The position numbers and the translations under genes are program-made. DNA of 64,000 nucleotides. Origin: a virus (lineage: Duplodnaviria > Heunggongvirae > Uroviricota > Caudoviricetes). Position 1 is the stretch's first letter. Each line of letters begins with the position of its first letter. This document shows positions 8,758 through 46,246 of this stretch, piece by piece. Where the stretch lies: the IMG/VR virus record IMGVR_UViG_2721755721_000001. One strand, written 5' to 3'. The notes under the pieces were generated by a model. The model was not told the DNA's origin and did no database searches. It worked only from the letters and a program-made list of their open reading frames with translations.

Positions 8758-8787
8758 TATGACCTCTGTTTTAAATTATAAGAGTAT

Positions 8788-26809: not shown

Positions 26810-27429
26810 GACTCGAAAGCGTAGCTAAATTTCATTCGCCAAAAAGCCCGATGATGAGCGACTCACCACGGGCTACGGCTTCTGACTCTCTTTCCGGTAC
26901 TGATGTGATGGCTGCTATGGGAATGGCGCAATCACAAGCCGGATTCGGAATGGCTGCATTCTGTGGTAAGCACGAACTCAGCCAGAACGACAAACAAAAG
27001 GCTATCAACTATCTGATGCAATTTGCACACAAGGTATCGGGGAAATACCGTGGTGTGGCAAAGCTCGAAGGAAATACTAAGGCAAAGGTACTGCAAGTGC
27101 TCGCAATATTTGCTTATGCGGATTATTGCCGTAGTGCCGCGACGCCGGGCGCAAGATGCAGAGATTGCCACGGTACAGGTCGGGCAGTTGATATAGCCAA
27201 AACAGAGCTGTGGGGGAGAGTTGTTGAGAAAGAATGCGGAAGATGCAAAGGTGTCGGCTATTCAAGAATGCCAGCAAGCGCCGCATATCGCGCTGTAACG
27301 ATGCTAATCCCAAACCTTACTCAACCCACCTGGTCACGCACTGTTAAGCCGCTGTATGACGCTCTGGTTGTGCAATGCCACAAGGAAGAGTCAATCGCAG
27401 ACAACATTTTGAATGCGATCACACGTTAG
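26806..27429 (+). CDS. Q: Q late antiterminator
   Basis: 207 aa, near-identical to lambda Q as recalled. Confidence 0.95.
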
Positions 27430-27665: not shown

Positions 27666-28424
27666 ATGAGTTGTAAGCCAATGTTATCATCTTGTATTGG
27701 GGTGGTTATGAAGGATGGTGCGCTGCTCAGGAGTTCTTCACTTTTTATTGCCTACATGGGATGCCTTGGATGGGGGAGTGCTTATTTCTATGGATGGGGT
27801 ACTTCTTTTTACTACGGCTTCCCATGGTGGATTGTAGGTGCAGGTGTTGATGATGTTGCCAGAAGTTTATTTTTTGCAGTTATCGTCATTGCTATATTTC
27901 TTATCGGTTGGGGTATTGGTGTTGTATTCTTTTTCGCAGTGAAAAGAAAACATTCTATGCAAGAGCTAAATGTATTTCGCCTTTATTTTGCTGTGGAATT
28001 ATTGTTTGTGCCGGCAATTATTGAGTTTTCTATATTGAGACAGAAGATTCAGGTACCTCTTTTGCTACTGTCAGCAGCGATTGCGCTGGCGGTTACAATT
28101 TCGATAAGATCTTATGGGCGATTTTTATCGGTATCATGCTTCTATGATAAGCCATTTATAAAAAAACATTTTTTTGAGATTGTGATGATTGCTTTTGTGG
28201 CATATTTCTGGCTTTTTTCATTTCTGACAGGATATTACAAACCACAGTTTAAGAAAGAATATGAAATGATTAATTATAATGATGATTGGTATTATGTTCT
28301 TGCTCGTTATGATAATTGTCTGGTTTTGTCTACTTCTTTCAATGCAGGTAGTAAAAGGTTTGTCATTTATCAATCAGCACAAGATAAGAATCTTCAGGTT
28401 GATATTGTAAGGACCAGAATTTAA
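27666..28424 (+). CDS. hypothetical multi-pass membrane protein (about 238-252 aa) in the stx/moron slot
   Basis: AT-rich ORF with at least five hydrophobic helices; likely start ATG 27709 after RBS GGGGTGG; possible own promoter TTGACG at 27641. Confidence 0.55.
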   Translation: MSCKPMLSSCIGVVMKDGALLRSSSLFIAYMGCLGWGSAYFYGWGTSFYYGFPWWIVGAGVDDVARSLFFAVIVIAIFLIGWGIGVVFFFAVKRKHSMQELNVFRLYFAVELLFVPAIIEFSILRQKIQVPLLLLSAAIALAVTISIRSYGRFLSVSCFYDKPFIKKHFFEIVMIAFVAYFWLFSFLTGYYKPQFKKEYEMINYNDDWYYVLARYDNCLVLSTSFNAGSKRFVIYQSAQDKNLQVDIVRTRI

Positions 28425-31263: not shown

Positions 31264-31470
31264 ATGGAAAAAATCACAACGGGTGTGTCATACACCACGT
31301 CAGCGGTGGGGACGGGATACTGGTTACTGCAGCTGCTGGACAAAGTCTCTCCGTCCCAGTGGGTGGCAATCGGTGTGCTGGGGAGTCTGCTGTTTGGCCT
31401 GCTGACGTATCTGACTAACCTTTATTTCAAGATTAAAGAAGATAAGCGTAAGGCGGCGCGGGGAGAGTAA
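31264..31470 (+). CDS. S: holin, phage 21 S-type (pinholin-like)
   Basis: 68 aa; [37 protein letters not shown] resembles S21 as recalled. Confidence 0.8.
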
Positions 31471-31474
31471 AGCG

Positions 31475-31819
31475 ATGAAGAAAAAATACGAACTGGTTGT
31501 TAAAGGGATAAATAATTACCCGGATAAGATTACTGTTACTGTGGCACTGGAAATTGGTGGGTATCCGTCACTGTTGTTGCCAAATGTGGCGATTAGTCTT
31601 GACCGTACTGAAGGTGCCACGCTGGAGTTTTACGAAGCGGAGGCGAAAAAGCAGGCGAAGCAGTTTTTCATGGATGTTGCTGCCGGGTTATGTGAAGGGG
31701 ATGGTCCGTTGCCGGAAAAGCGGCCCATCATTTTAGAGGCGCAGGATGTGTTGATAACCTACAGAGGAAAACTACCGGGAATAATTACTGGTTCTCTGAA
31801 GACTCCACCGCTGGCCTGA
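31475..31819 (+). CDS. DUF1327-like lysis-cassette protein
   Basis: 114-aa ORF between holin and endolysin; family assignment from memory. Confidence 0.45.
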   Translation: MKKKYELVVKGINNYPDKITVTVALEIGGYPSLLLPNVAISLDRTEGATLEFYEAEAKKQAKQFFMDVAAGLCEGDGPLPEKRPIILEAQDVLITYRGKLPGIITGSLKTPPLA

Positions 31820-31869
31820 AGACTTAACATATCCAGGGATTTGAAATCGATAAACCCTGATAAATATCC

Positions 31870-32403
31870 ATGAACACCAAAATCAAATACGGCCTGTCGG
31901 CTGCCGTTCTGGCGCTGATTGCCGCAGGTGCGCCTGCGCCTGAAATCCTCGACCAGTTTCTGGATGAAAAGGAAGGTAACCACACCACGGCATACCGTGA
32001 TGGCGCGGGTATCTGGACCATCTGCCGCGGTGCCATCCTGGTGGATGGTAAACCTGTCGTTCCGGGCATGAAGTTGTCGAAGGAAAAATGCGACCAGGTT
32101 AACGCCATTGAACGTGATAAGGCGCTGGCATGGGTGGAGAAAAACATCAAAGTGCCACTGACCGAACCCCAGAAAGCGGGGATCGCGTCATTCTGTCCGT
32201 ACAACATTGGTCCCGGTAAATGTTTCCCGTCGACGTTTTACAGACGAATTAATGCAGGTGATCGCAGGGGAGCGTGTGAGGCGATTCGCTGGTGGATTAA
32301 GGACGGTGGCAGAGACTGCCGTATTCGCTCAAATAACTGTTACGGTCAGGTATCCCGTCGCGACCAGGAGAGTGCGCTGGCGTGCTGGGGAATTGACAGA
32401 TAA
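31870..32403 (+). CDS. R: SAR endolysin (T4-lysozyme-like, signal-anchor-release type)
   Basis: 177 aa; N-terminal weakly hydrophobic SAR segment YGLSAAVLALIAAGAPA; lysozyme-like body. Confidence 0.8.
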   Translation: MNTKIKYGLSAAVLALIAAGAPAPEILDQFLDEKEGNHTTAYRDGAGIWTICRGAILVDGKPVVPGMKLSKEKCDQVNAIERDKALAWVEKNIKVPLTEPQKAGIASFCPYNIGPGKCFPSTFYRRINAGDRRGACEAIRWWIKDGGRDCRIRSNNCYGQVSRRDQESALACWGIDR

Positions 32404-32701
32404 GCAGAATATTTTGCTGAAAAATGCGGTTTGCTCACACGGACGGATAACACGAAATCCTGAGAACTGACAAAAACTAAGTGAATAAAAGTAAAAACCC
32501 CATTTGTTGGCTGCAAGCGGGGTTTTGTGTTTCCTGACTCCGGAAAAGTCAAAGGAGAAAGTGTGTTTGATTTTAGCAAACTGATTCGGGAGATTCGAGT
32601 GATGGCTGAAAAATTATCCACCTGGAAGTTCATCCTTATCTGGCTGGTGTTTGTGATTATGGCCTCCGGTTATTTCATCGGTCAGATACGCTGGTGGTGA
32701 A

Positions 32702-33196
32702 ATGAACCGCGTACTGTGCGTGGTCATCATTGCCCTGCTGGTGGCCTGTGGTGCGCTTAGTCTGGGGCTGAATCATTACCGTGATAACGCCATAACCTAC
32801 AAAGAGCAGCGCGATAAAAAAGTCAGTGAGCTGGAGCTGGCAAATGCAACCATTACTGATATGCAGCAGCGCCAGCGTGATGTTGCTGCACTTGATGCCA
32901 GATACTCGAGGGAATTAGCCGATGCGAGAGCTGAAAATGAAACTCTTCGCGCTGACGTTGCCGCTGGTCACCGCAGCCTGCGGATCAACGCCACCTGTCC
33001 AGGTCCCGTGCGTGAAGCCACCGGCACCGCCCGCGTGGATAATGCAACCGGCCCCCAACTGGCAGACACCGTTACACGGGATTATTTCACCCTCAGAGAG
33101 CGGCTGATGACGATGCAGAAGCAACTGGAAGGGGCACAGGACTATATCCGCACTCAGTGTACTAAGCAGGCTTTTTATTATCCGGAGGATGTATGA
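32702..33196 (+). CDS. Rz: Rz i-spanin
   Basis: 164 aa; N-terminal TM, coiled-coil periplasmic domain; Rz1 embedded in +1 frame. Confidence 0.8.
   Translation: MNRVLCVVIIALLVACGALSLGLNHYRDNAITYKEQRDKKVSELELANATITDMQQRQRDVAALDARYSRELADARAENETLRADVAAGHRSLRINATCPGPVREATGTARVDNATGPQLADTVTRDYFTLRERLMTMQKQLEGAQDYIRTQCTKQAFYYPEDV
32937..33107 (+). CDS. Rz1: Rz1 o-spanin lipoprotein embedded in Rz
   Basis: [15 protein letters not shown] lipoprotein signal; Pro-rich mature part; nested in Rz. Confidence 0.7.
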   Translation: MKLFALTLPLVTAACGSTPPVQVPCVKPPAPPAWIMQPAPNWQTPLHGIISPSESG

Positions 33197-33417
33197 AGAA
33201 ATTACAGGTAACGGTAAAACCTTTTCAGGGAACAATTCCGTTCCGTGTTTTGCAACATGGCCGTGTTCTGCTTGAAGAGGTGTTCAGAGGTAAATGCACT
33301 GAATGTTATTCACGAACATATGAAGTGAATGCCACGCATGAAGAATTCACCGTTGAGTGTGTGATGAATACTGATAAATGCCGAATGGTATCCGCTGAAT
33401 TACAGCCAGTGTGTTGA
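33193..33417 (+). CDS. hypothetical small Cys-containing protein downstream of Rz
   Basis: 74-aa ORF conserved in both lysis cassette copies. Confidence 0.45.
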   Translation: MKKLQVTVKPFQGTIPFRVLQHGRVLLEEVFRGKCTECYSRTYEVNATHEEFTVECVMNTDKCRMVSAELQPVC

Positions 33418-33776
33418 GCGACCTTATTATCCATGCGCGGTATTGTCGCCGTATTCCTGCATTAACAGAGACCGCAGCCCGACAGGGCGACTCCTCTGCG
33501 GGAGTGTGCGGGGATAATCAAAAACGATACACACCGGGGTTTACCGCGTAAACGGAGCGCGGCGTTCTCCCCTCATGGTCGCCCGTCCGGTGCGATGGTG
33601 GAAGAAACTGGAATCTGTTCAATAAAAAAAACTGCCGTGTTGGAGTCACAGCAGTAATGTACTGATTGGGTAGAAGATTATTATTGTTATGCTTTATTCT
33701 TATTCTATATGGCTGATTATTTGGTAACCGGCTCATTTAAACCGTCTGGTCTGTTTCCTCCGGCTCTACAAAAATA

Positions 33777-34454
33777 ATGTCCATCATTTTTAATGGACAC
33801 TATCGTATGAAACACCGGACCTGGATCACTGAAGCTTTACGTCTTCACTTTGAAGAACATTTACCCCGGGTTGTGGCCGGGCGTCGCCTGAGTGTACCAA
33901 AATCAACAGTTTGTAGTATGTTCGTGCGCTTTCGGAGAGCTGGCCTTTCGTGGCCTTTGCCCGCAGGCATGTCGGAGCAGGAACTTGATGCCTGCCTTTA
34001 CGGACAATTTTCCACGGTACCAGTCGTACGTCCTGAAAGCACCGTTATATCCGAAGCCCCCGTGGTAAAAAAACGTCCCCGGCGGCCCAACTTCCCTTAT
34101 GAGTTTAAAATCGCCTTAGTGGAGCAGTCACTACAGCCCGGAGCCTGTGTGGCGCAGATCGCCCGGGAAAACGGAATCAACGATAACCTGCTCTTCAACT
34201 GGCGCCATCAATACCGGAAAGGTGGCCTGCTGCCTTCCGGAAAAAATATGCCGGCACTGCTTCCCGTGACGTTAACGCCGGAGCCGGATAATAAAATCCC
34301 GGCCCCCGCACAGGAACCAGAGCAGATAAATACACCGTCCGACAGTCTGTGTTGTGAGCTGGTTCTGCCGGCCGGAACTCTCAGGCTTAAAGGTAAACTG
34401 ACGCCGGCGTTATTACAGACACTTATCCGCGAAATAAAAGGGAGCAGCCACTGA
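33777..34454 (+). CDS. IS66-family accessory protein (orfA-like)
   Basis: first ORF of IS66-type unit; start possibly at MKHRT (33807). Confidence 0.6.
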   Translation: MSIIFNGHYRMKHRTWITEALRLHFEEHLPRVVAGRRLSVPKSTVCSMFVRFRRAGLSWPLPAGMSEQELDACLYGQFSTVPVVRPESTVISEAPVVKKRPRRPNFPYEFKIALVEQSLQPGACVAQIARENGINDNLLFNWRHQYRKGGLLPSGKNMPALLPVTLTPEPDNKIPAPAQEPEQINTPSDSLCCELVLPAGTLRLKGKLTPALLQTLIREIKGSSH

Positions 34455-34801
34455 TGATATCTCTCCCTGCAGGTTCGCGTATCTGGCTGGTTGCAGGTAT
34501 CACCGATATGCGAAATGGCTTTAACGGCCTGGCATCAAAAGTTCAGAACGTCCTGAAGGATGACCCGTTCTCCGGACACCTGTTCATCTTCCGCGGACGC
34601 CGGGGTGACCAGATAAAAGTGTTGTGGGCTGACAGTGACGGACTGTGCCTCTTCACCAAACGCCTGGAGCGGGGCCGCTTCGTCTGGCCAGTCACCCGTG
34701 ACGGCAAGGTGCACCTTACTCCGGCTCAGTTATCCATGCTTCTTGAAGGTATCAACTGGAAGCACCCGAAACGAACGGAACGCGCTGGAATCCGCATATA
34801 A
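34454..34801 (+). CDS. IS66 Orf2-like protein (TnpB)
   Basis: 115 aa MISLPAGSRIWLVAGITDMRNGFNGLASKVQ..., characteristic IS66 orfB. Confidence 0.85.
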   Translation: MISLPAGSRIWLVAGITDMRNGFNGLASKVQNVLKDDPFSGHLFIFRGRRGDQIKVLWADSDGLCLFTKRLERGRFVWPVTRDGKVHLTPAQLSMLLEGINWKHPKRTERAGIRI

Positions 34802-34820
34802 CCCGTTGTAAAGTGAGGAT

Positions 34821-36392
34821 ATGGACACCTCACTTGCTCATGAGAACGCCCGCCTGCGGGCACTGTTGCAGACGCAACAGGACACCATCCGCCAGATGGC
34901 TGAATACAACCGCCTGCTCTCACAGCGGGTGGCGGCTTATGCTTCCGAAATCAACCGGCTGAAGGCGCTGGTTGCGAAACTGCAACGTATGCAGTTCGGT
35001 AAAAGCTCAGAAAAACTTCGTGCAAAAACCGAACGGCAGATACAGGAAGCACAGGAGCGAATCAGCGCACTTCAGGAAGAAATGGCGGAAACGCTGGGTG
35101 AGCAATATGACCCGGTACTGCCATCCGCCCTGCGCCAGTCTTCAGCCCGTAAACCGTTACCGGCCTCACTTCCCCGTGAAACCCGGGTTATCCGGCCGGA
35201 AGAGGAATGCTGTCCTGCCTGTGGTGGTGAACTCAGTTCTCTGGGATGTGATGTGTCAGAGCAACTGGAGCTTATCAGCAGCGCCTTTAAGGTTATCGAA
35301 ACACAACGTCCGAAACAGGCCTGTTGCCGGTGCGACCATATCGTGCAGGCACCAGTACCTTCAAAACCCATTGCACGCAGTTATGCCGGAGCGGGGCTTC
35401 TGGCCCATGTTGTCACCGGGAAATATGCAGACCATCTGCCGTTATACCGCCAGTCAGAAATATACCGTCGTCAGGGAGTGGAGCTGAGCCGTGCCACACT
35501 GGGGCGCTGGACAGGTGCTGTTGCTGAACTGCTGGAGCCGCTGTATGACGTCCTGCGCCAGTATGTGCTGATGCCCGGTAAAGTCCATGCTGATGATATC
35601 CCCGTCCCGGTCCAGGAGCCGGGCAGCGGTAAAACCCGGACAGCCCGGCTGTGGGTCTACGTCCGTGATGACCGTAACGCCGGTTCACAGATGCCCCCGG
35701 CGGTCTGGTTCGCGTACAGTCCGGACCGGAAAGGTATCCATCCACAAAATCACCTGGCCGGTTACAGCGGTGTGCTTCAGGCCGATGCTTACGGTGGTTA
35801 CCGGGCGTTATACGAATCCGGCAGAATAACGGAAGCCGCGTGTATGGCTCATGCCCGGAGAAAAATCCACGATGTGCATGCAAGAGCGCCCACCTACATC
35901 ACCACGGAAGCCCTGCAGCGTATCGGTGAACTGTATGCCATCGAGGCAGAGGTCCGGGGCTGTTCAGCAGAACAGCGTCTGGCGGCAAGAAAAGCCAGAG
36001 CCGCGCCACTGATGCAGTCACTGTATGACTGGATACAGCAACAGATGAAAACACTGTCGCGTCACTCAGATACGGCAAAAGCGTTCGCATACCTGCTGAA
36101 ACAGTGGGATGCACTGAACGTGTACTGCAGTAATGGCTGGGTGGAAATCGACAACAACATCGCAGAGAACGCCTTACGGGGAGTGGCCGTAGGCCGGAAA
36201 AACTGGATGTTCGCGGGTTCCGACAGCGGTGGTGAACATGCGGCGGTGTTGTACTCGCTGATCGGCACATGCCGTCTGAACAATGTGGAGCCAGAAAAGT
36301 GGCTGCGTTACGTCATTGAACATATCCAGGACTGGCCGGCAAACCGGGTACGCGATCTGTTGCCCTGGAAAGTTGATCTGAGCTCTCAGTAA
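34821..36392 (+). CDS. IS66-family transposase (TnpC)
   Basis: 523 aa; N-terminal leucine-zipper-like region, CPACGG zinc motif, conserved catalytic core. Confidence 0.85.
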
Positions 36393-36422
36393 ATATCAAT
36401 ACGGTTCTGACGAGTCGCTTAC

Positions 36423-36713
36423 ATTACTGTTACTGTGGCACTGGAAATTGGTGGGTATCCGTCACTGTTGTTGCCTGATGTGGCGATTAGTCTTGACCGT
36501 ACTGAAGGAGCCACGCTGGAGTTTTACGAAGCTGAGGCGAAAAAGCAGGCGAAGCAGTTTTTCATGGATGTTGCTGCCGGGTTATGTGAAGGGGATGGTC
36601 CGTTGCCGGAAAAGCGGCCCATCATTTTAGAGGCGCAGGATGTGTTGATAACCTACAGAGGAAAACTACCGGGAATAATTACTGGTTCTCTGAAGACTCC
36701 ACCGCTGGCCTGA
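36423..36713 (+). pseudogene. 5'-truncated second copy of DUF1327-like gene (starts at IS66 junction)
   Basis: sequence after the IS right end aligns with 31527 onward of copy 1; N-terminal 22 codons missing. Confidence 0.7.
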
Positions 36714-36763
36714 AGACTTAACATATCCAGGGATTTGAAATCGATAAACCCTGATAAATATCC

Positions 36764-37297
36764 ATGAACACCAAAATCAGATACGGCCTGTCGGCTGCCG
36801 TTCTGGCGCTGATTGCCGCAGGTGCGCCTGCGCCTGAAATCCTCGACCAGTTTCTGGATGAAAAGGAAGGTAACCACACCACGGCATACCGTGATGGCGC
36901 GGGTATCTGGACCATCTGCCGCGGTGCCATTCTGGTGGATAGTAAACCTGTCGTCCCGGGCATGAAGTTGTCGAAGGAGAAATGCGACCAGGTTAACGCC
37001 ATTGAACGTGATAAGGCGCTGGCATGGGTGGAGAAAAACATCAAAGTGCCACTGACCGAACCCCAGAAAGCGGGGATCGCGTCATTCTGTCCGTACAACA
37101 TTGGTCCCGGTAAGTGTTTCCCGTCGACGTTTTATAAACGAATTAATGCAGGTGATCGCAGGGGAGCGTGTGAGGCGATTCGCTGGTGGATTAAGGACGG
37201 TGGCAGAGACTGCCGTATTCGTTCAAACAACTGCTACGGTCAGGTATCCCGTCGTGACCAGGAGAGCGCGCTGGCGTGCTGGGGTATCGACAGATAA
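36764..37297 (+). CDS. R: SAR endolysin, second diverged copy
   Basis: 177 aa, about 98 percent identical to 31870-32403 product. Confidence 0.8.
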   Translation: MNTKIRYGLSAAVLALIAAGAPAPEILDQFLDEKEGNHTTAYRDGAGIWTICRGAILVDSKPVVPGMKLSKEKCDQVNAIERDKALAWVEKNIKVPLTEPQKAGIASFCPYNIGPGKCFPSTFYKRINAGDRRGACEAIRWWIKDGGRDCRIRSNNCYGQVSRRDQESALACWGIDR

Positions 37298-37778
37298 GCA
37301 GAATATTTTGCTGAAAAATAAAGCATGGCCACGCGGGCGGATAACATGAAATCCTGCGAACTGGCGAAACGTAAGTGAATAAAAGTAAAAACCCCGTTTG
37401 TTGGCACCAAGCGGGGTTTTGTGTTTCTGACCTTGAGTAAGGCAAGGGAGAACATGGCGAAGTATAAACGAATTCTGTTGAGGTTGACCATGAAAAACGG
37501 CCTTGAACTGAAAGCGCCTGTAACTGATGACATCAGCAGAGCACTGGCTTTTGCCATTAAGTGGGTGGCGGTCGGTGTTGCTGTGTCCCCGATGCTGTAT
37601 GGGCTGGCAAAACTGGTCATTGCGTTGAAATCGTGAAGGGAGGATTAAGCATGTCAGACAAACTCATAACGCTGGCGAAGATCCTCTGTGTAATTGTCGG
37701 CATTTCATTTTCACTAATGCTGGTTGCTCTTTTTCTTTCCATGGCCTGGATGATGTTGTCTTCGTCGGGGCTGCTGGG

Positions 37779-38279
37779 GTGAACATAAACCGAATGCTTT
37801 CCGCGTTTATCGTTATTCTGCTGGTGGCCTGTGGTGCGCTGTGGATGGCAACAGACCATTACCGTGATAACGCGATTACCTACAAAGCGCAGCGCGATAA
37901 CAAAGCCAGTGAACTGAAGCTGGCGAACGCAACCATTACTGATATGCAGGTGCGCCAGCGCGATGTTGCTGCGCTCGATGCAAAATACTCGAGGGAATTA
38001 GCCGATGCGAGAGCTGAAAATGAAACTCTTCGCGCTGACGTTGCCGCTGGTCGTAAGCGCCTGCGGATCAACGCCACCTGTCCAGGCTCCGTGCGTGAAG
38101 CCCCCACCACCTCCGGCGTGGATAATGCAACCGGCCCCCGACTGGCAGACACCGCTGAACGGGATTATTTCATCCTCAGAGAACGGTTGATGACAATGCA
38201 GAAGCAGCTGGAAGGGGCGCAGGAATATATCCGCACTCAGTGCACTAAGCTGGCTTTTTATTATCCGGAGGATATATGA
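37779..38279 (+). CDS. Rz: Rz i-spanin, second copy (diverged N-terminus)
   Basis: 166 aa; C-terminal two thirds near-identical to copy 1, N-terminus differs. Confidence 0.75.
38020..38190 (+). CDS. Rz1: Rz1 o-spanin, second copy
   Basis: [15 protein letters not shown] lipoprotein signal, embedded in Rz copy 2. Confidence 0.7.
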
Positions 38280-38500
38280 AGAAATTACTGGTAACCGTAA
38301 AGCCTTTTCAGGGAACAATTCTGTTCCGTATTTTGCAGCGTGGTCGTGTTCTTGTTGAAGGTTCGTTCAGTGGTAAATGTACGCAATTACACTCCCGGAC
38401 CTTTCAGGTGAATGCCACGAATGAAGAGCTAACCGTTGAGTGTACGATGAATGCCGCTAAATGCCGCATGGTATCCGCTGCATTACAGCCAGTGTGTTGA
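38276..38500 (+). CDS. hypothetical small Cys-containing protein, second copy
   Basis: homolog of 33193-33417 product. Confidence 0.45.
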
Positions 38501-38823
38501 GCGACCTTATTATCCATGCGCGGTATTGTCGCCGTATTCCCGCATTAACAGAGACCGCAGCCCGACCGGGAGACTCCTCTTCGCGAGTGTGCGGGGATAA
38601 TCAAAAACGATACACACCGGGGTTTACCGCGTTAACGGAGCGCGGCGTTGCCCCTCATAGTCGCCTGTCCGGTGCGATGGTGGAAGAAGCCGGACGATGT
38701 GTTACCTCGCAAGCCCTGTTATGTGTCTGATTTGTGATTTAAGTCGGATAATTGTCGTTGCCATCAAGCAGAGGATTGATGACCGACAGGGTGGCATTGT
38801 TAGAATAAGACTTATTCTTATCT

Positions 38824-39165
38824 GTGCCGGGAATGAAAATGAAAAGAAATCTTCCGTTAATTATTTTGTTGTCTTCTCTGGTTATGGGCTGTACGCAACA
38901 TAAAACAGATATGCCCCGACAATTGGTGAAGGCATTACCACAATATCCGGCCTATGCAGCGGCAAATTATATAAAGGGACGGGTTGATGTGAAGTTTGAT
39001 ATTGGTGCTGATGGTACTGTCACCCGAATTGAGTTTATCCGTTCAGAGCCGCACCATCTGTTTGATGAGCAGGTTGTAAAGGCGATGGCAAAATGGCGAT
39101 TTGAGAAGGACAGGCCGCGTAAAGGCGTGAAGAAAACGTTTATCTTTAGTCCTTCTGCACCCTGA
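38824..39165 (+). CDS. lipoprotein consisting of a TonB C-terminal-like domain (in bor position)
   Basis: lipobox LVMGC; PQYPAYAAANYIKGRVDVKFDIGADGTVTRIEFIRSEPHHLFDEQVVKAMAKWRFE parallels the E. coli TonB C-terminal domain as recalled. Confidence 0.65.
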   Translation: MPGMKMKRNLPLIILLSSLVMGCTQHKTDMPRQLVKALPQYPAYAAANYIKGRVDVKFDIGADGTVTRIEFIRSEPHHLFDEQVVKAMAKWRFEKDRPRKGVKKTFIFSPSAP

Positions 39166-39296
39166 TTATTTCATCAGAAATTAATTATCACTCTGTTGTT
39201 ATTCTGTACATCCCGGCTGGGTAAGTCTTGTTCCGCCGGGTATGAAGATGAAATATTGTTGGAGGACAGTGGGTACCTGCTCCTGTAACCGAACGT

Positions 39297-39497
39297 TCAT
39301 TTCTCGTTATTTGTCATGCTGGCCGTACGCAGATGCGTTGCATCTGTTGCCAGCCTTCTCCTGCAGGCTTCAATAACCCACGCTGAAAAGTTACCGGACC
39401 CTTTATGCTCAAGGGCGATGTTGATCTGTTCAATCATCTGGTTTGGAAATCGGATGTTGCGGGTTGTTGTTCTGCGGGGCCGGTTTTTCGATGACAT
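39297..39497 (-). CDS. YlcI/DUF3950-like small RHH-type protein
   Basis: 66 aa, RNIRFPNQMIEQINIALEHKGSGNFSAWVIEACRRRL; same relative position as ylcI in DLP12 as recalled. Confidence 0.45.
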   Translation of the reverse strand: MSSKNRPRRTTTRNIRFPNQMIEQINIALEHKGSGNFSAWVIEACRRRLATDATHLRTASMTNNEK

Positions 39498-39538
39498 TTT
39501 CTTTCCTCTGGTGACAAGCTATATGGCGAGGATTTTAC

Positions 39539-39904
39539 ATGGCTGTGCTTCGTACGTTACCGGGCAGAATCAAAACTCTGAACACCCGGCGGGTGAATGT
39601 CCTGAAGGGTGAACAGCGTCGTGTCAGTGGCAGTGCACGTGTTTCCCTCAAGCGTCATATCTGGCTCAGGGATGCCGGGCAGTGCTGTCTCTGTGGTCGT
39701 GTGGTTGACCTCTGTGACAGTGAACTCGATCACCGAATTGCACTTCAGTTCGGTGGTGGTAATGAGGAGACGAATCTCTGGACGCTCTGTACCGAATGCC
39801 ATCGACAAAAGTCTGCTCGTGAAGCGGCGGGTGGTATGCCGGACCCGACGCTGCCGGAGGTGTCCGGAGGTCATGGCAGGGCAGACGATATCATCGGACT
39901 GTGA
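39539..39904 (+). CDS. HNH endonuclease (packaging-associated)
   Basis: CCLCGRV...DHRIALQFGG...NLWTLCTECH HNH motif; immediately upstream of terminase genes. Confidence 0.8.
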   Translation: MAVLRTLPGRIKTLNTRRVNVLKGEQRRVSGSARVSLKRHIWLRDAGQCCLCGRVVDLCDSELDHRIALQFGGGNEETNLWTLCTECHRQKSAREAAGGMPDPTLPEVSGGHGRADDIIGL

Positions 39905-40007
39905 CCCGCCCCGGGGGGGGGATCATCCGGCGAAAAAAACGATCGCTCCGGACACCGCCCCCCCTCTCATGCAGAGAAAAAATTCCTGTTTCAGGGCAGT
40001 TAACATG

Positions 40008-40124
40008 TTAACTGGCTGCCCGGGCATTTTTGCGGTTTTTATCTTTATTATTCAGTTTGTTGTGCGAAAAAAATGTTAACTGGCTTTTTCAGCAAATGTT
40101 AACCAAGCAGCAGTTAACATTTGC
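40008..40124. repeat. GTTAAC-containing palindromes/repeats between HNH and terS (candidate cos/terminase recognition or regulatory site)
   Basis: 14-bp palindrome GTTAACATGTTAAC (40008-40021); ATGTTAACTGGCT twice (40014, 40073); 12-bp-arm inverted repeat GCAAATGTTAAC-9bp-GTTAACATTTGC (40092-40124); G9 tract at 39913-39921. Confidence 0.45.
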
Positions 40125-40194
40125 GGCATGAGACGCCGGGAAAAATGGGCTGAACCATACCCGGCTGAGTGCGTTCTGGACCCGGGAGGAGGCT

Positions 40195-40758
40195 GTGCTG
40201 ACAACGCAAAAACGAAAATTTGCGCTGGCGCTCATGTCCGGGAAAAACAAAACAGCGTCAGCCATTGCCGCCGGTTATTCGGCGAAGACCGCCAGGGTTA
40301 AAGGCTCGCAGCTGGCAAAAGATCCGGAGGTGCTCGCGTTTATAGCCCGTAAACAGTGCGAGACGGTGGAGGTGGATGAGGTTCCTGTTTACCGGCAGAA
40401 AAAATCAGAGCAGGAGGATAAACCCCGTCGCCGTGAGGTGGCTGCAATACCACAGCCGGACGAAAACAATCCGGAGATGCCACCGTCCGCGGTGATGTCT
40501 CCTGGTATTGAATATATGGAGGATGGTCTTCCCGATCCGGTGAAAGCCATGGGGCGGATCCTGGTGGAAAACCTCTGCATTGATCCGAAACTGGCACTGG
40601 ATGCGGCCTGGCGTCTGGCGCAGTTCACGCACCATAAAAAAGGCGATGCCGGTAAAAAATCGGCAAAAGGTGATGCCGCGAAAAAAGCGGCTAACCGTTT
40701 TGCGGTGCCACCACCTCCCCGGCTGGTGGTGAATAACCAGAATGAGGAAAGCGGATGA
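40195..40758 (+). CDS. terminase small subunit
   Basis: 187-aa ORF directly upstream of and overlapping terminase large subunit. Confidence 0.65.
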   Translation: MLTTQKRKFALALMSGKNKTASAIAAGYSAKTARVKGSQLAKDPEVLAFIARKQCETVEVDEVPVYRQKKSEQEDKPRRREVAAIPQPDENNPEMPPSAVMSPGIEYMEDGLPDPVKAMGRILVENLCIDPKLALDAAWRLAQFTHHKKGDAGKKSAKGDAAKKAANRFAVPPPPRLVVNNQNEESG

Positions 40759-42416
40759 TACCTGTATGGAGCACGGCATGTCCGGACTGGGCAGAGCGCC
40801 TGCAAAAGGGACTGTCGATTATTCCGGCTCCGATTTATCCGGACCAGGCTGCACATGCCCTGGCGATTTTTAAACAACTGCGGATTGTGGATGCACCGGG
40901 TAGCCCGACGTTCGGGGAGTCCTGCGCACCGTGGGTGTTTGACCTGGTGGCGGCCCTGTTTGGCTCCTATGATGCGCAGACCGGTGTACGCCATATCAAG
41001 GAAGTGTTTATCCTTATCCCCAAGAAAAACAGTAAGTCCACGCTGGCCGCGGGGATCATGATGACGGCGCTGTTACTGAACTGGCGGCAGGCGGCGGGCT
41101 ACACCATTCTGGCCCCGACCGTGGAGGTGGCGGCCAACGCCTTCAACCCTGCCAGGGATATGGTGCGACGGGACGATGATCTGGATGACCTCTGTCAGGT
41201 GCAGACACATATCCGGACCATCACCCATCGGGTGACGGACACCACCCTGAAGGTGGTGGCAGCCGATCCGAATACGGTGTCCGGTATCAAGTCCGTGGGG
41301 ACACTGATTGATGAACTGTGGCTGTTTGGCAAGCAGTACAAAGCGGAAGACATGCTACGTGAAGCCATCGGCGGGCTTGCCTCCCGTCCGGAAGGATTTG
41401 TGGTGTACACAACCACCCAGTCGAATGAGCCGCCAGCCGGGGTGTTCAGACAGAAACTGCAGTACGCCCGGGATGTCCGTGACGGCAAAATTCATGATCC
41501 GCACTTTCTGCCGGTGATATTTGAACACCCTCCTGAAATGGTGGAAAGCGGGGCTCACCTGCTGATGGAAAACCTCGCCATGGTTAACCCGAATCTCGGT
41601 TATTCGGTGGATGAGGCTTTTCTGTACCGGGAGTACCGTAAAGCCCGGGAGGCTGGTGAGGAAGCATTTCGTGGCTTCATGTCAAAACACGCCAATGTGG
41701 AAATCGGTCTTGCCCTGCGTTCTGACCGCTGGGCGGGCGCGGATTTCTGGGAGCAGCAGGGCAGGCGCGTCAGCCTGGACGATATCCTGCAGCGCGCTGA
41801 TGTGGTGACGGTGGGGATTGACGGCGGGGGCCTGGATGATCTGCTGGGAATGTACGTGACTGGCCGTGACAGGGAAACCCGCGAATGGCTGGGCTGGGGC
41901 CATGCCTGGGTGCATGAAACCGCGGTGGTCAGACGGAAGAGTGAGGCATCCCGGTTTCAGGATTTTGTGGCCTGTGGAGACATGACGATTGTCCGTCGGG
42001 TCGGGGATGACACGGCGGAAGTGGCGGAGTATGTGCGTCGTATTCATGAGGCTGAGTTACTGGACCATATCGGTATTGACCCGTCAGGGGTGGGGCAGAT
42101 TCTGGATTCACTGGCGGAAGCCGGGATCCCCGATGAGAGTGTGGTGGGGATAAGCCAGGGCTGGAAGCTGGGCGGGGCCATCAAAACCACCGAGCGCAAA
42201 CTGGCTGAAGGGGTGCTGATTCACGGTGATCAGCCCCTGATGGCCTGGTGTGTCGGTAATGCCCGGGTGGAGCCTAAAGGTAACGCCATTCTTATCACCA
42301 AACAGGCCAGCGGACGGGGAAAAATTGACCCGCTGATGGCGCTCTTCAATGCGGTGTCCCTGATGTCCCTTAACCCGGAACCGAAAAAGAAAGCGTATGA
42401 GGTTTTTTTCATATAA
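40755..42416 (+). CDS. terminase large subunit
   Basis: 553 aa; typical size and position; ATPase/nuclease-type acidic motifs. Confidence 0.8.
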   Translation: MIPVWSTACPDWAERLQKGLSIIPAPIYPDQAAHALAIFKQLRIVDAPGSPTFGESCAPWVFDLVAALFGSYDAQTGVRHIKEVFILIPKKNSKSTLAAGIMMTALLLNWRQAAGYTILAPTVEVAANAFNPARDMVRRDDDLDDLCQVQTHIRTITHRVTDTTLKVVAADPNTVSGIKSVGTLIDELWLFGKQYKAEDMLREAIGGLASRPEGFVVYTTTQSNEPPAGVFRQKLQYARDVRDGKIHDPHFLPVIFEHPPEMVESGAHLLMENLAMVNPNLGYSVDEAFLYREYRKAREAGEEAFRGFMSKHANVEIGLALRSDRWAGADFWEQQGRRVSLDDILQRADVVTVGIDGGGLDDLLGMYVTGRDRETREWLGWGHAWVHETAVVRRKSEASRFQDFVACGDMTIVRRVGDDTAEVAEYVRRIHEAELLDHIGIDPSGVGQILDSLAEAGIPDESVVGISQGWKLGGAIKTTERKLAEGVLIHGDQPLMAWCVGNARVEPKGNAILITKQASGRGKIDPLMALFNAVSLMSLNPEPKKKAYEVFFI

Positions 42417-42479
42417 CCCTGCTCACCCTGTAACCATCATGAACCGCTGCGGCGGTTTTTTTATTTTCAGGAGGCTGAT

Positions 42480-42960
42480 GTGACTCTTAAACGGGCCTGT
42501 TCCCTGCTGACGGTGAAATCCTTCAGTGAGGATGAGCGGGTGATCACCGGGATTGCGTCAACGCCTTCTCCGGATCGGGATGGTGACATCCTGGAGCCGG
42601 AGGGCGCGGAGTTTGGCAGTGCGATCCCGTTTCTCTGGCAGCATGACCATTCCCGCCCGGTGGGGCAGTGTACGGTGCGCCGGGTCAGCGAAGGGCTGGA
42701 AATCACGGCAACACTGGCGAAGCCCGTGCCGGATATGCCATCGCAACTGGTTGCCCGGCTGGATGAGGCCTGGGCGGCCATTAAGACCGGGCTGGTCAGG
42801 GGGCTTTCCGTGGGCTTCCGTCCCCATGAATACACCTTTCTGGACGGAGGCGGACTGCATTTTCTGCGCTGGGAACTGATGGAGGTGTCTGCCGTCACCG
42901 TGCCCGCGAATGCGGAATGCACCATCCGGACCATTAAATCTTACGACCGCCCGTTTTCTG
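42480..42960 (+). pseudogene. prohead protease N-terminal fragment truncated at tandem-duplication junction
   Basis: identical start to the 44309 ORF, diverges after 42959 where sequence re-enters terminase (copy of 41136 onward). Confidence 0.7.
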
Positions 42961-44245
42961 CACTAACGCCTTCAACCCTGCCAGGGATATGGTACGACGG
43001 GACGATGATCTGGATGACCTCTGTCAGGTGCAGACACATATCCGGACCATCACCCATCGGGTGACGGACACCACCCTGAAGGTGGTGGCAGCCGATCCGA
43101 ATACGGTGTCCGGTATCAAGTCCGTGGGGACACTGATTGATGAACTGTGGCTGTTTGGCAAGCAGTACAAAGCGGAAGACATGCTACGTGAAGCCATCGG
43201 CGGGCTTGCCTCCCGTCCGGAAGGATTTGTGGTGTACACAACCACCCAGTCGAATGAACCGCCTGCCGGGGTGTTCAGACAGAAACTGCAGTACGCCCGG
43301 GATGTCCGTGACGGCAAAATTCATGATCCGCACTTTCTGCCGGTGATATTTGAACACCCTCCTGAAATGGTGGAAAGCGGGGCTCACCTGCTGATGGAAA
43401 ACCTCGCCATGGTCAATCCGAATCTCGGTTATTCGGTGGATGAGGCTTTTCTGTACCGGGAGTACCGTAAAGCCCGGGAGGCTGGTGAGGAAGCATTTCG
43501 TGGCTTCATGTCAAAACACGCCAATGTGGAAATCGGTCTTGCCCTGCGTTCTGACCGCTGGGCGGGCGCGGATTTCTGGGAGCAGCAGGGCCGTTGTATC
43601 AGCCTGGACGATATCCTGCGTCGTGCTGATGTGGTGACGGTGGGGATTGACGGCGGAGGGCTGGATGATCTGCTGGGAATGTACGTGATTGGGCGTGACC
43701 GGGAGACCCGCGAATGGCTGGGCTGGGGCCATGCCTGGGCGCATGAAACCGCGGTGGTCCGACGGAAGAGCGAGGCGTCCCGGTTTCAGGATCTTGTTGC
43801 CTGTGGAGATATGACCATTGTCCGGCGTGTCGGGGATGACACGGCGGAAGTGGCGGAATATGTGCGTCGCATTCATGAGGCTGAGTTACTGGACCATATC
43901 GGTATTGACCCGTCAGGGGTGGGGCAGATTCTGGATTCACTGGCGGAAGCCGGGATCCCCGACGGAATTGTGGTGGGGATAAGCCAGGGCTGGAAACTGG
44001 GCGGGGCCATCAAAACCACCGAGCGCAAACTGGCTGAAGGGGTGCTGATTCACGGTGATCAGCCCCTGATGGCCTGGTGTGTCGGTAATGCCCGGGTGGA
44101 GCCTAAAGGTAACGCCATTCTTATCACCAAACAGGCCAGCGGACGGGGAAAAATTGACCCGCTGATGGCGCTCTTCAATGCGGTGTCCCTGATGTCCCTG
44201 AATCCGGAACCGAAAAAGAAAGCGTATGAGGTTTTTTTCATATAA
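42961..44245 (+). pseudogene. duplicated 3' two thirds of terminase large subunit gene
   Basis: 42966-44245 aligns with 41136-42416 at about 97-98 percent identity; lacks N-terminal third. Confidence 0.7.
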
Positions 44246-44308
44246 CCCTGCTCACCCTGTAACCATCATGAACCGCTGCGGCGGTTTTTTTATTTTCAGG
44301 AGGCTGAT

Positions 44309-46246
44309 GTGACTCTTAAACGGGCCTGTTCCCTGCTGACGGTGAAATCCTTCAGTGAGGATGAACGGGTGATCACCGGGATTGCGTCAACGCCTTCTCC
44401 GGATCGGGATGGTGACATCCTGGAGCCGGAGGGGGCTGAGTTTGGCAGTACGATCCCGTTTCTCTGGCAGCATGACCATTCCCGCCCTGTAGGACAGTGT
44501 ACGGTGCGTCGGGTCAGGGAAGGGCTGGAAATCACGGCAATGCTGGTGAAGCCGGAGCCGGGGATGCCCTCCCAGATGGCAGCCCGGCTGGATGAGGCCT
44601 GGGCTGCCATTAAGACCGGGCTGGTCAGGGGGCTTTCTGTGGGCTTCCGGCCCCATGAATACACTTATCTGGACGGAGGCGGACTGCATTTTCTGCGCTG
44701 GGAGCTGATGGAGGTGTCTGCCGTCACCGTGCCCGCGAATGCGGAATGCACCATCCGGACCATTAAATATTTCGACCGCCCGTTTTCTGCCGCGTCCGGC
44801 AACCGGAAACCGGTGGTGAAAATCGCATCTTCTGCCGGCGCTGCGGCACAGTCAATAACCTCTTTTCATAAGGAAAAGTCAGCAATGAATACTGGTGAAC
44901 AGATTAAAAGTTTTGAAAACAAGCGTGCGGCGCTGGCAGCCTCCCTTGAGGAGATCATGAACAAAGCCGCAGAGGAAGGCCGCACACTGGATGTGGAAGA
45001 GGAAGAGCACTACGACAACACCGCAGCGGAAATCCGTCAGGTGGATGCGCACCTGAAGCGTCTGCGTGAACTGGAAACCAGTAAGGCCGCCACGGCACAG
45101 CCGGTGAAACAGGCCGGTAACGGGAATGTGGCCACGGTGGCTTCAGCGCCGGTGATCCGTGTTGAGCAGAAACTGGAGAAGGGGATTGGTTTCGCCCGCT
45201 TTGCCAAATCACTGGCCGCGGCTAAAGGTGTCCGCTCTGAAGCCCTGGAAGTGGCCCGTCGTCAGTATCCGGATGACAGCCGTCTGCATCATGTCCTGAA
45301 ATCGGCGGTGGGGGCAGGGACCACCACGGACCCACAGTGGGCAGGCAGCCTGTCTGAATATCAGGAATATGCGCAGGACTTTATTGATTACCTGCGTCCG
45401 CAGACCATTATCGGGCGATTTGGTCAGGGCGGGATCCCTGCACTTCGTCAGGTGCCGTTCAATATCCGCGTGCATGCCCAGGTGTCCGGCGGTGCTGCCA
45501 GCTGGGTGGGGGAGGGTAAGGCCAGACCCCTGACGAAGTTTGATTTTGAGTCCATCACCTTCAGTCATGCGAAGGTGTCGGCCATTGCGGTACTGACGGA
45601 AGAGCTGATCCGTTTTTCCAGTCCGGCAGCTGATGCGCTGGTCCGTAATGCGCTGGCAGAAGCGGTGGTGGCGCGTCTGGACACAGACTTTGTGGACCCG
45701 AAAAAAGCCGCAGTGGCAGATGTCTCCCCGGCGTCCATCACCCATGATGTGAAGGGCACGGCATCAACCGGTAACCCGGATGCGGATGCCGAGGCGGCGT
45801 TTGGCCAGTTTGTGGCAGCAAACCTGCAGCCCACCGGTGCGGTCTGGCTGATGTCCAGCACCAATGCCCTGGCACTGTCCATGCGTAAAAATGCGCTGGG
45901 TCAGAAGGAATACCCGGACATGACCCTGCTGGGTGGCTCCTTCCAGGGGCTGCCGGTGATTGTCTCCCAGTACGTGGGTGACCAGCTGGTGCTGGTGAAT
46001 GCCCCGGATATTTATCTGGCGGATGACGGCGGTGTGGCAGTGGATATGTCCCGTGAAGCGTCACTGGAAATGCAGTCTGAGCCGGGCGGCGACAGCACCA
46101 CACCGTCGCCGGTGGAGCTGGTTTCCATGTTCCAGACCGGCAGCGTGGCCATCCGTGCGGAGCGCTGGATCAACTGGCGTCGTCGCCGTACTGCGGCGGT
46201 GGCTGTGATCACCGGTGTGAACTACGGCAGTGCGTCCGGCGGCTGA
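44309..46246 (+). CDS. prohead protease - major capsid protein fusion (HK97-like)
   Basis: 645 aa; N-terminal protease-like region followed by capsid-like domain. Confidence 0.7.
   Translation: MTLKRACSLLTVKSFSEDERVITGIASTPSPDRDGDILEPEGAEFGSTIPFLWQHDHSRPVGQCTVRRVREGLEITAMLVKPEPGMPSQMAARLDEAWAAIKTGLVRGLSVGFRPHEYTYLDGGGLHFLRWELMEVSAVTVPANAECTIRTIKYFDRPFSAASGNRKPVVKIASSAGAAAQSITSFHKEKSAMNTGEQIKSFENKRAALAASLEEIMNKAAEEGRTLDVEEEEHYDNTAAEIRQVDAHLKRLRELETSKAATAQPVKQAGNGNVATVASAPVIRVEQKLEKGIGFARFAKSLAAAKGVRSEALEVARRQYPDDSRLHHVLKSAVGAGTTTDPQWAGSLSEYQEYAQDFIDYLRPQTIIGRFGQGGIPALRQVPFNIRVHAQVSGGAASWVGEGKARPLTKFDFESITFSHAKVSAIAVLTEELIRFSSPAADALVRNALAEAVVARLDTDFVDPKKAAVADVSPASITHDVKGTASTGNPDADAEAAFGQFVAANLQPTGAVWLMSSTNALALSMRKNALGQKEYPDMTLLGGSFQGLPVIVSQYVGDQLVLVNAPDIYLADDGGVAVDMSREASLEMQSEPGGDSTTPSPVELVSMFQTGSVAIRAERWINWRRRRTAAVAVITGVNYGSASGG

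What the first reader, a model, noticed from the sequence alone, without database searches (positions are those of the whole stretch)
31475..38688. IS66-family element sits between two diverged copies of the lysis cassette; second copy is 5'-truncated
Sequence 36423-38688 (truncated DUF1327-like gene, SAR endolysin, Rz/Rz1, small ORF) is a diverged duplicate of 31527-33606. The second copy begins exactly at the right end of the IS66-type element (33724-36422), lacks the holin and the first 22 codons of the DUF1327-like gene, and has different small ORFs between R and Rz. The IS has no matching target-site duplication. This is the signature of IS-mediated deletion/recombination joining the early and lysis region of one lambdoid prophage to the late region of another.
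Basis: seen in the sequence. Interest (0 to 1): 0.55.

Follow-up and report, generated by a model that had tools for sequence, protein, structure and literature searches.

The report
Insertion sequence splicing two prophage lysis cassettes
A common E. coli jumping gene (ISCro1) sits exactly where DNA from two related lambda-like prophages has been spliced out of register, leaving one and a half copies of the cell-lysis genes; this is a clear example of a well-known kind of prophage rearrangement, not a new system.

Summary
A complete 2,699-bp ISCro1 (IS66 family; 33724-36422) separates an intact lysis cassette from a second, diverged partial copy. Copy 1 carries the P21-type holin, ydfR/DUF1327, endolysin, Rz/Rz1 and orf74. 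Copy 2 starts exactly at the IS right end and lacks the holin and the first 54 nt (18 codons, not 22) of ydfR. The flanks are ATTATTTG and ATTACTGT, so there is no 8-bp target duplication; four of six other ISCro1 copies have a perfect one.

The two flanks have different ancestry. The left flank is near-identical to an O39:NM prophage with an empty site. The right flank has 0 differences over 3.3 kb to a PS1Thumoskin9 prophage with intact ydfR. The copies therefore did not diverge in place.

It makes an 1,826-bp diverged TerL/capsid duplication. The second-phage DNA may therefore be a 6.5-kb patch rather than a whole late region.

Best reading: a real IS-anchored recombination between two lambdoid phage genomes. 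Assembly chimerism cannot be excluded from one window. The kind of event is known, so interest is low to moderate.

The parts
31264..31470 (+). Class II (P21 S-type) holin, present in copy 1 only
   Evidence: PF04971, E=1e-32; there is no counterpart right of the IS.
31475..31819 (+). Intact ydfR (DUF1327) gene, copy 1
   Evidence: PF07041, E=3e-45; phrog_406, function unknown.
31870..32403 (+). Endolysin R, copy 1 (P21 R / RrrD-type lysozyme with an Ala/Gly-rich hydrophobic N-terminus)
   Evidence: PF00959; matches the P21 lysozyme structures 3HDE/3HDF and RrrD 4ZPU.
32702..33196 (+). Rz spanin, copy 1, with Rz1 embedded at 32922-33107
   Evidence: PF03245, E=1e-47; the embedded 61-aa ORF is listed.
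33193..33417 (+). orf74, a conserved phage ORF of unknown function, copy 1
   Evidence: phrog_2571; annotated as hypothetical in relatives.
33613..33723 (.). Unique tail of segment A up to the IS. It contains a hairpin plus T-run on the minus strand (33631-33655). The last base, G at 33723, differs from the C found in four reference phages.
   Evidence: The empty site in L007/L008/L012/L005 reads ...GGCTGATTATTT|CAATTCGG.
33724..36422 (+). ISCro1 (IS66 family), 2,699 bp, complete: tnpA 33777-34454, tnpB 34454-34801, tnpC 34821-36392. The terminal inverted repeats match at 16 of 22 positions. There is no target-site duplication.
36423..36713 (+). 5'-truncated ydfR' (lacks 54 nt, i.e. 18 codons). 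It is in the tnpC frame but separated from it by stop codons; the first possible start is GTG at 36435.
   Evidence: 0 differences from the intact gene in PS1Thumoskin9.
36764..37297 (+). Endolysin R, copy 2 (intact, 174/177 aa identical to copy 1)
37298..37778 (+). R-Rz spacer of copy 2, carrying small ORFs (37421-37636, 37561-37782) unrelated to the copy 1 spacer ORF (32527-32700)
   Evidence: no alignment; phrog_1115 and phrog_4906 against phrog_6632.
37779..38279 (+). Rz, copy 2 (131/164 aa identical to copy 1), with Rz1 at 38005-38190
38276..38500 (+). orf74, copy 2 (55/74 aa identical to copy 1)
36423..42961 (+). Segment B: a stretch from a second lambdoid lineage carrying ydfR', R, Rz/Rz1, orf74, a TonB_C moron, YlcI, HNH, TerS, an intact TerL and the first ~481 nt of the protease-capsid gene
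   Evidence: 98.2% identical to the PS1Thumoskin9 prophage overall and 0 differences over 36423-39700; domains.
42962..42964 (.). Second out-of-register joint. Capsid sequence ends at 42961, an unexplained A sits at 42962, and TerL sequence (nt ~379 onward) resumes at 42963. There is no microhomology.
   Evidence: the joint is absent from 5,426 E. coli genomes and from the GTDB representative genomes.
42965..44790 (+). Second copy of the TerL 3' part and capsid 5' part, 96.3% identical to 41136-42961. It is followed by the intact capsid gene 44309-46246.

Best explanation
The window holds a chimeric lambdoid prophage in an E. coli chromosome, lying next to a P4-like satellite whose identical copy sits at argW in strain Z1323HEC0108.

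Proposed history:
1. A resident prophage had an O39:NM-like lysis cassette. It carried, or received, ISCro1 in the intergenic stretch just downstream of orf74.
2. A second lambdoid genome, PS1Thumoskin9-like, carried the same IS inside ydfR at codon 19.
3. Recombination anchored in the 2.7-kb IS joined the two out of register. The IS therefore has the left flank of one insertion and the right flank of another, with no target duplication. A holin-less, 5'-truncated second lysis cassette follows it.
4. The second-phage DNA ends 6.5 kb later at an illegitimate joint, capsid nt ~481 to TerL nt ~379. I read the whole block 36423-42961 as one patch that replaced about 1.9 kb of the resident phage (YlcI to TerL nt ~380).
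5. The patch is longer than the gap on both sides, so it leaves a diverged duplication at each end.

Consequences (inferred): no gene is lost, because every lysis and packaging gene has at least one intact copy. The late operon now has to be read through the IS. The genome is about 6.7 kb longer. Both lesions are flanked by 1-1.8 kb direct repeats of 95-96% identity, which could recombine and restore a normal phage.

Shown: the anatomy, the missing target duplication, the separate ancestry of the flanks, and the second joint. Inferred: the order of events, one patch rather than two events, and crossover within the IS rather than transposase chemistry.
For: - IS ends are exact, and 4 of 6 other ISCro1 copies have perfect 8-bp duplications whereas this one has ATTATTTG/ATTACTGT.
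- The left flank 32200-33722 has 1 difference from L007, where the site is empty.
- The right flank 36423-39700 has 0 differences from L009, where ydfR is intact.
- The copies differ by 4.5-13% and have unrelated R-Rz spacers.
- ISCro1 is found in ydfR at two other positions in other strains, as simple insertions. The TSD GTTAAAGG was read directly in L005; for L008 an 8-bp overlap (31654-31661) is inferred from blast coordinates. A ydfR-borne donor copy is therefore plausible.
- At the second joint, similarity to L009 falls from 98.2% to 95.6% while similarity to L013 rises from 94.6% to 97.6%. L013 also resembles the early region at about 97%.
- The second joint has no repeat through which an assembler could mis-join.
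- Precedents: deletion between adjacent O157 prophages through shared repeats, and functional phage production despite an IS629 insertion in the late operon (PMC7430833); measured rates of IS x IS recombination in E. coli (PMC5009759).
Against: - Neither presumed parental insertion is present in 5,426 complete E. coli genomes: not the IS at the orf74-downstream site, and not the IS at ydfR codon 19. Two unobserved insertions must therefore be assumed.
- The base next to the IS left end (G at 33723) is C in all four references. A clean parental insertion does not predict this.
- No single reference phage matches both segment A and segment C at high identity. The one-patch idea rests on modest similarity shifts in a highly mosaic group.
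- The second joint has no microhomology and a 1-nt filler, which is unusual for recombination in E. coli.
- There are no read-level data, so a mis-join through the IS is not excluded.
Confidence: 0.45

Rival explanations
1. A transposase-made joint from a single IS copy. ISCro1 already sat in ydfR of a downstream or co-resident prophage. Its left end then attacked the orf74-downstream site of the other prophage, either as an intramolecular adjacent deletion in tandem prophages at the same att site or as a replicative cointegrate. This fused A-left to IS-B-right. The TerL/capsid joint is a separate, later illegitimate event. This is closest to the first reader's wording.
For: Only one unobserved parental insertion is needed. 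Both IS termini are exact. The locus holds elements integrated in tandem: a P4-like satellite abuts the lambdoid prophage at an att site that is argW in Z1323HEC0108. Collapse of adjacent prophages by deletion is documented in O157 (PMC7430833).
Against: Nothing retrieved here shows intramolecular or replicative transposition for the IS66 family (one search was uninformative). The extra G at 33723 is not expected from direct strand transfer. The model needs two independent out-of-register events within 10 kb. It also needs a third phage lineage for segment C that happens to resemble the early region's relative.
Confidence: 0.25
2. Assembly chimera. The genome has two separate prophages, each with an ISCro1 insertion, and the assembler joined them through the identical 2.7-kb IS.
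For: ISCro1 is multicopy in many E. coli genomes, up to 26 places per genome. Both IS junctions are unique among all collections searched. A mis-join through an IS reproduces a missing target duplication exactly.
Against: A 64-kb contig that runs through a multicopy IS suggests long reads, which normally span 2.7 kb (inference). The second joint (42961/42963) has no shared repeat and is out of register, so a graph mis-join does not explain it. It argues that this prophage really is rearranged.
Confidence: 0.12
3. One-ended or aberrant ISCro1 transposition moved the IS together with 6.5 kb of right-flanking phage DNA (33724-42961) as one unit into the resident prophage, in the manner of ISEcp1 or IS91 mobilising adjacent DNA.
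For: The block begins exactly at the IS left terminus. The block and only the block has the second ancestry. Both of its outer joints carry one unexplained base.
Against: There is no 8-bp duplication around the block (ATTATTTG on the left against ACTAACGC or TAACGCCT on the right). By eye, the block's right end shows no convincing resemblance to the IS right inverted repeat (about 6 of 14 positions). About 1.9 kb of target DNA is missing, which simple insertion does not do. I know of no such behaviour in the IS66 family (own knowledge; one search found nothing).
Confidence: 0.07
4. A tandem duplication of one prophage's lysis region, made in place around the IS, whose copies later diverged by mutation.
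For: The copies are direct repeats in the same orientation.
Against: Each copy is 99-100% identical to a different extant prophage while the copies differ from each other by 4.5-13%. The R-Rz spacers are unrelated sequences. All ORFs are intact, which does not fit long decay.
Confidence: 0.01

Closest known systems
ISCro1 (IS66 family), as annotated in E. coli and first named in Citrobacter rodentium ICC168 (24 copies there; PMC3072379)
   Same: Same element: 2,699 bp, tnpA-tnpB-tnpC, termini GTAACC...GCTTAC. It is 100% identical to the fS25a copy and 98.4-99.9% identical to four other aligned copies.
   Different: This copy has no 8-bp target duplication, and its flanks come from two different phage lineages.
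Simple ISCro1 insertions in the lysis region of lambdoid or Stx prophages: O103:H2 strain 129 Stx1a prophage (ydfR, TSD GTTAAAGG), strain fS25a (mid-ydfR), strain EL361 (upstream of the holin)
   Same: Same IS, same gene neighbourhood, same orientation relative to the late operon.
   Different: Those are single insertions with target duplications and no duplicated cassette. The insertion points differ from the one here; the closest is 30 nt away.
Prophage-prophage recombination and inter-prophage deletions or inversions in EHEC O157 (PMC7430833; PMC2669165 by title and abstract)
   Same: Chimeric prophages formed by recombination between repeats shared by co-resident lambdoid prophages. An IS in the late operon is tolerated.
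   Different: In those cases the crossovers are in register within phage homology. Here the portable homology is an IS at non-equivalent positions, so the product carries diverged duplications.
P21-type pinholin / SAR-endolysin / Rz-Rz1 lysis cassette of Stx-converting phages
   Same: Both cassettes are of this type. The closest phage records are Stx1a-, Stx2a- and Stx2c-converting phages at about 95%.
   Different: There are no stx genes in the window. The second cassette lacks the holin and has a truncated ydfR.

Membership tests
IS66 family insertion sequence (ISCro1) | Three consecutive genes tnpA, tnpB and tnpC, with a DDE_Tnp_IS66 transposase | tested here: met
   PF01527 (tnpA), PF05717 (tnpB), PF03050 plus PF13005, PF13007 and PF13817 (tnpC), E down to 2.5e-103.
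IS66 family insertion sequence (ISCro1) | Terminal inverted repeats beginning GTAA | tested here: met
   GTAACCGGCTCATTTAAACCGT against GTAAGCGACTCGTCAGAACCGT, 16/22 identical. Six other copies have the same termini.
IS66 family insertion sequence (ISCro1) | 8-bp direct target-site duplication flanking the element | tested here: not met
   Flanks are ATTATTTG and ATTACTGT. Four of six comparison copies have perfect 8-bp duplications. This reflects the history of this copy rather than doubt about family membership.
IS66 family insertion sequence (ISCro1) | Near-identity to curated ISCro1 copies | tested here: met
   100% over 2,699 bp to the fS25a copy, which RefSeq annotates as an ISCro1 family transposase.
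IS-mediated recombinant junction (chimeric prophage) | The IS lacks a target duplication and its two flanks are not contiguous in uninterrupted relatives | tested here: met
   The left flank continues into YlcI/HNH in L007, L008 and L012. The right flank is ydfR codon 19 in L009.
IS-mediated recombinant junction (chimeric prophage) | The flanks have different ancestry | tested here: met
   Left flank: 1 difference in 1.5 kb from L007. Right flank: 0 differences in 3.3 kb from L009. The two cassettes differ from each other by 4.5-13%.
IS-mediated recombinant junction (chimeric prophage) | A reciprocal product or second IS copy with the complementary flanks elsewhere in the genome | not testable with these tools
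   Only 64 kb of the genome is available and the window holds no second ISCro1. A search of other genomes with synthetic reciprocal junctions was inconclusive.
IS-mediated recombinant junction (chimeric prophage) | Physical continuity of the junctions on one DNA molecule (not an assembly artefact) | not testable with these tools
   There are no reads. The junctions are absent from all collections searched.
P21-type pinholin / SAR-endolysin lysis cassette | Class II holin of the S21 family | tested here: met
   PF04971, E=1e-32, copy 1 only.
P21-type pinholin / SAR-endolysin lysis cassette | Lysozyme homologous to P21 R with an N-terminal signal-arrest-release domain | tested here: inconclusive
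   Homology to 3HDE/3HDF and RrrD is met. The SAR domain is judged only by eye from the Ala/Gly-rich N-terminus YGLSAAVLALIAAGAPAP; no topology prediction was run.
P21-type pinholin / SAR-endolysin lysis cassette | Rz with Rz1 embedded in another frame | tested here: met
   PF03245 for Rz. Both copies have a 61-aa embedded ORF with a Cys-containing, lipobox-like N-terminus and a Pro-rich body.

The most novel reading that the evidence does not exclude
ISCro1 acts as a portable anchor, or even a one-ended mobiliser. It carried a 6.5-kb lysis-to-packaging module from one lambdoid phage into another in a single event. Both outer joints were made by end joining, each with a 1-nt filler. The product is a prophage that has lost nothing and can revert by recombination between its diverged repeats. 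This would be an IS-driven route for out-of-register module exchange among lambdoid phages, and a behaviour not described for the IS66 family.
Probability: 0.1. Interest if true: 0.5.

Novelty: new member of a known kind. Interest (0 to 1): 0.22.

Why it matters
This is a cleanly resolved example of how an insertion sequence supplies portable homology that lets two mosaic prophages recombine at non-equivalent positions. All of its junctions are unique among 5,426 complete E. coli genomes.

It is useful as an annotation caution: two endolysin and spanin sets do not mean two prophages. It also gives a testable case of a possibly revertible prophage lesion.

It does not reveal a new gene system, and it does not change how lambdoid phages or IS66 elements are thought to behave.

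Tried and rejected
1. Wider IS boundaries. The overrun comes from similar AT-rich target sequences.

2. Source or sister genomes. Exact-match scans of the GTDB representative genomes (IS right joint and second joint) and of the JGI metagenomes (IS right and left joints) found nothing. The E. coli genome searches found no record with any of the three joints.

3. Reciprocal or parental junctions. A synthetic query was inconclusive: the top 15 rows were all two-piece IS-end matches of equal coverage, so a true hit could be hidden below them.

4. A single reference phage matching both segment A and segment C, which would prove one backbone.

5. One-ended transposition. I found no duplication flanking the block 33724-42961 and no IR-like sequence at its right end (by eye).

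6. Function of the small ORFs, orf74 and ydfR. NCBIfam, PHROGs and Pfam returned only families of unknown function.

7. Sequenced phage records. None contains the IS or the duplication.

8. IS66 transposition mechanism. The literature search returned nothing usable.

Full report
**1. What is there**

The region lies in the late operon of a lambdoid prophage in an E. coli chromosome. Bases 1-10261 of the window are 100% identical to a P4-like satellite of strain Z1323HEC0108, where that satellite sits at tRNA-Arg. From about 10250 a lambdoid prophage follows:
- a torI-type end
- exo/bet
- cI 19115-19822
- O/P
- NinG
- Q 26806-27429
- an unknown 252-aa ORF
- a nanS-p-like esterase 28966-30816
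- the lysis genes, then the head and tail genes, running to the end of the window

No tRNA gene is present in the window.

**2. Check of the observation**

Copy 1 of the lysis cassette is complete:
- S21-type holin, 31264-31470
- ydfR/DUF1327, 31475-31819
- endolysin, 31870-32403, homologous to the P21 lysozyme structures 3HDE/3HDF
- Rz, 32702-33196, with embedded Rz1 at 32922-33107
- orf74, 33193-33417

A three-gene IS66-family element follows (tnpA 33777-34454, tnpB 34454-34801, tnpC 34821-36392). RefSeq annotates identical copies as ISCro1.

I therefore aligned six other copies. The apparent overrun comes from similar AT-rich targets.

Four of those six copies have perfect 8-bp target duplications and one has a single mismatch. 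The window copy has ATTATTTG on the left and ATTACTGT on the right.

Immediately after the IS, 36423-37452 repeats 31529-32559 at 95.5%, and 37773-38694 repeats 32690-33612 at 87%. An unrelated spacer lies between R and Rz.

Homology begins at codon 19 of ydfR, so 54 nt (18 codons) and the holin are missing from copy 2. R, Rz, Rz1 and orf74 of copy 2 are all intact.

**3. Ancestry of the flanks**

- *Left flank.* 32200-33722 has one difference from a prophage of O39:NM strain F8704-2 (L007). There the site is empty and reads ...GGCTGATTATTT|CAATTCGG, continuing into YlcI, HNH endonuclease and terminase.
- *Right flank.* 36423-39700 has no differences from a prophage of strain PS1Thumoskin9 (L009), where ydfR is intact and preceded by its holin.

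The two cassettes therefore come from two phage lineages, and the IS has the left flank of one insertion site and the right flank of another. Divergence of a tandem duplicate in place is excluded.

The IS is 100% identical to the copy in strain fS25a. That copy interrupts ydfR at a different position in an A-type prophage. An O103:H2 Stx1a prophage carries ISCro1 in ydfR 30 nt upstream of the position seen here, with the duplication GTTAAAGG. ISCro1 insertions in this gene therefore do occur as ordinary events.

**4.

Self-comparison shows that 41136-42961 and 42965-44790 are adjacent direct repeats, 96.3% identical. The sequence runs through an intact TerL (40755-42416) and the first ~481 nt of the protease-capsid gene. 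After one unexplained A at 42962 it restarts at TerL nt ~379 and continues through an intact capsid gene (44309-46246). There is no microhomology at the joint.

The nearest relative changes across this joint:

| Reference | Before the joint | After the joint |
|---|---|---|
| L009 | 98.2% | 95.6% |
| L013 (a prophage of Z1323HEC0393) | 94.6% | 97.6% |

L013 also resembles the early region at about 97%. This joint is likewise absent from 5,426 E. coli genomes and from the GTDB representatives.

**5. How it most likely arose**

The block from the IS to 42961 can be read as one patch of second-phage DNA. It replaced about 1.9 kb of the resident phage, from just after orf74 to TerL nt ~380.

The patch runs from ydfR codon 19 to capsid nt ~481, so it overlaps the retained resident DNA on both sides. 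One event then explains both diverged duplications. The left joint is anchored by the IS, either by a crossover between two IS copies or by transposase chemistry. The right joint is illegitimate.

The alternative is two successive events. An example is collapse of tandem prophages, first by an IS-mediated adjacent deletion and then by an unrelated deletion. The presence of tandemly integrated elements at this att site, and a documented deletion between adjacent O157 prophages (PMC7430833), make that credible.

I cannot separate these versions here. Lambdoid mosaicism blurs lineage assignment: for example, 40163-41363 is identical to L007 rather than L009.

One detail fits neither cleanly. The base next to the IS left end is G, where four reference phages have C.

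**6. Consequences (inferred)**

- Every lysis and packaging gene has at least one intact copy.
- The IS lies in the same orientation as the late operon.
- Consensus scans find no strong plus-strand terminator inside the IS.
- An O157 Stx2 phage with IS629 in its late operon still makes plaques (PMC7430833).
- The prophage is about 6.7 kb longer than an unrearranged equivalent. It also encodes a truncated protease-capsid fragment (42480-43064) and an N-terminally truncated TerL (42989-44245), so packaging may be impaired.
- Both lesions are bounded by 1-1.8 kb direct repeats of 95-96% identity, and the prophage has its own exo/RecT genes. Recombination could therefore delete 31529-36422 and one 1,829-bp unit and restore a normal genome.

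**7. Artefact?**

A mis-join through a multicopy IS would mimic the missing duplication, and it cannot be excluded without reads. Against it, the second joint has no repeat to mis-join through. In addition, a 64-kb contig that runs through an IS suggests spanning reads. I put this at about 0.12.

**8. Comparison and novelty**

The IS is ISCro1. It fails only the target-duplication criterion, which reflects the history of this copy rather than its identity. The cassettes are the ordinary Stx-phage type.

IS- and repeat-mediated chimerism of co-resident lambdoid prophages is well documented in EHEC (PMC7430833; PMC2669165 by title and abstract), and IS x IS recombination rates in E. coli have been measured (PMC5009759).

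This is a new instance of a known kind of event. Its junctions were not seen in any collection searched. Interest is low to moderate. The only reading that would raise it is IS-driven mobilisation of a 6.5-kb phage module in one step, which the missing flanking duplication and the 1.9-kb replacement make unlikely.

Noticed in passing
window 41136-42961 and 42965-44790 (joint at 42961/42963): An adjacent 1,826-bp direct duplication, 96.3% identical, covering the TerL 3' part and the capsid 5' part. The joint has a 1-nt filler and no microhomology, and the nearest relative changes across it. It leaves a truncated protease-capsid ORF (42480-43064) and an N-truncated TerL ORF (42989-44245).
   Followed up: yes
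window 33723 and 42962: Each outer joint of the block [IS + second-phage DNA] carries one base that neither parental sequence explains. G at 33723 is C in four reference phages. A at 42962 lies between the capsid and TerL sequences.
   Followed up: partly
window 1-10261 and about 10250 onward: A P4-like satellite (integrase 8788-10122, primase 3304-5976, Psu/Delta-like genes) abuts the lambdoid prophage directly. The identical satellite sits alone at tRNA-Arg (argW) in Z1323HEC0108, and a related lambdoid prophage with a torI end occupies the same csc-side locus in strain JB2. The two elements therefore appear to be integrated in tandem at one att site. No tRNA gene and no lambdoid integrase lie inside the window.
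   Followed up: partly
L005 3401-6104; L008 3556-6254; L006 3382-6100: Independent ISCro1 insertions in the same lysis neighbourhood in other strains: in ydfR of an O103:H2 Stx1a prophage (TSD GTTAAAGG), mid-ydfR in strain fS25a, and upstream of the holin in swine strain EL361. All are in the same orientation as the late operon.
   Followed up: partly
window 27666-28424 (+): A 252-aa ORF between the antiterminator Q and the nanS-p-like esterase, the position occupied by stx genes in Stx phages. It has no Pfam or NCBIfam hit and matches only PHROG families of unknown function (phrog_1521).
   Followed up: partly
window 38824-39165 (+): A small moron with a lipoprotein-like N-terminus and a TonB C-terminal domain (PF03544), present only downstream of cassette copy 2. 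PHROGs labels its family 'Rz-like spanin' (phrog_1267), which disagrees with the Pfam assignment.
   Followed up: no
window about 47984-48090; L007 15331-15863: Relatives carry 3.3 tandem copies of a 162-nt (54-codon) unit inside the region RefSeq annotates as a frameshifted portal protein. The window has a single unit, so this is a copy-number-variable, in-frame repeat in a head gene.
   Followed up: partly
L004 (strain EC13) ISCro1 copy: Another ISCro1 copy without a matching 8-bp duplication (GCATATCT against ATATGTTC). TSD-less, presumably recombinant, copies are therefore not rare.
   Followed up: no
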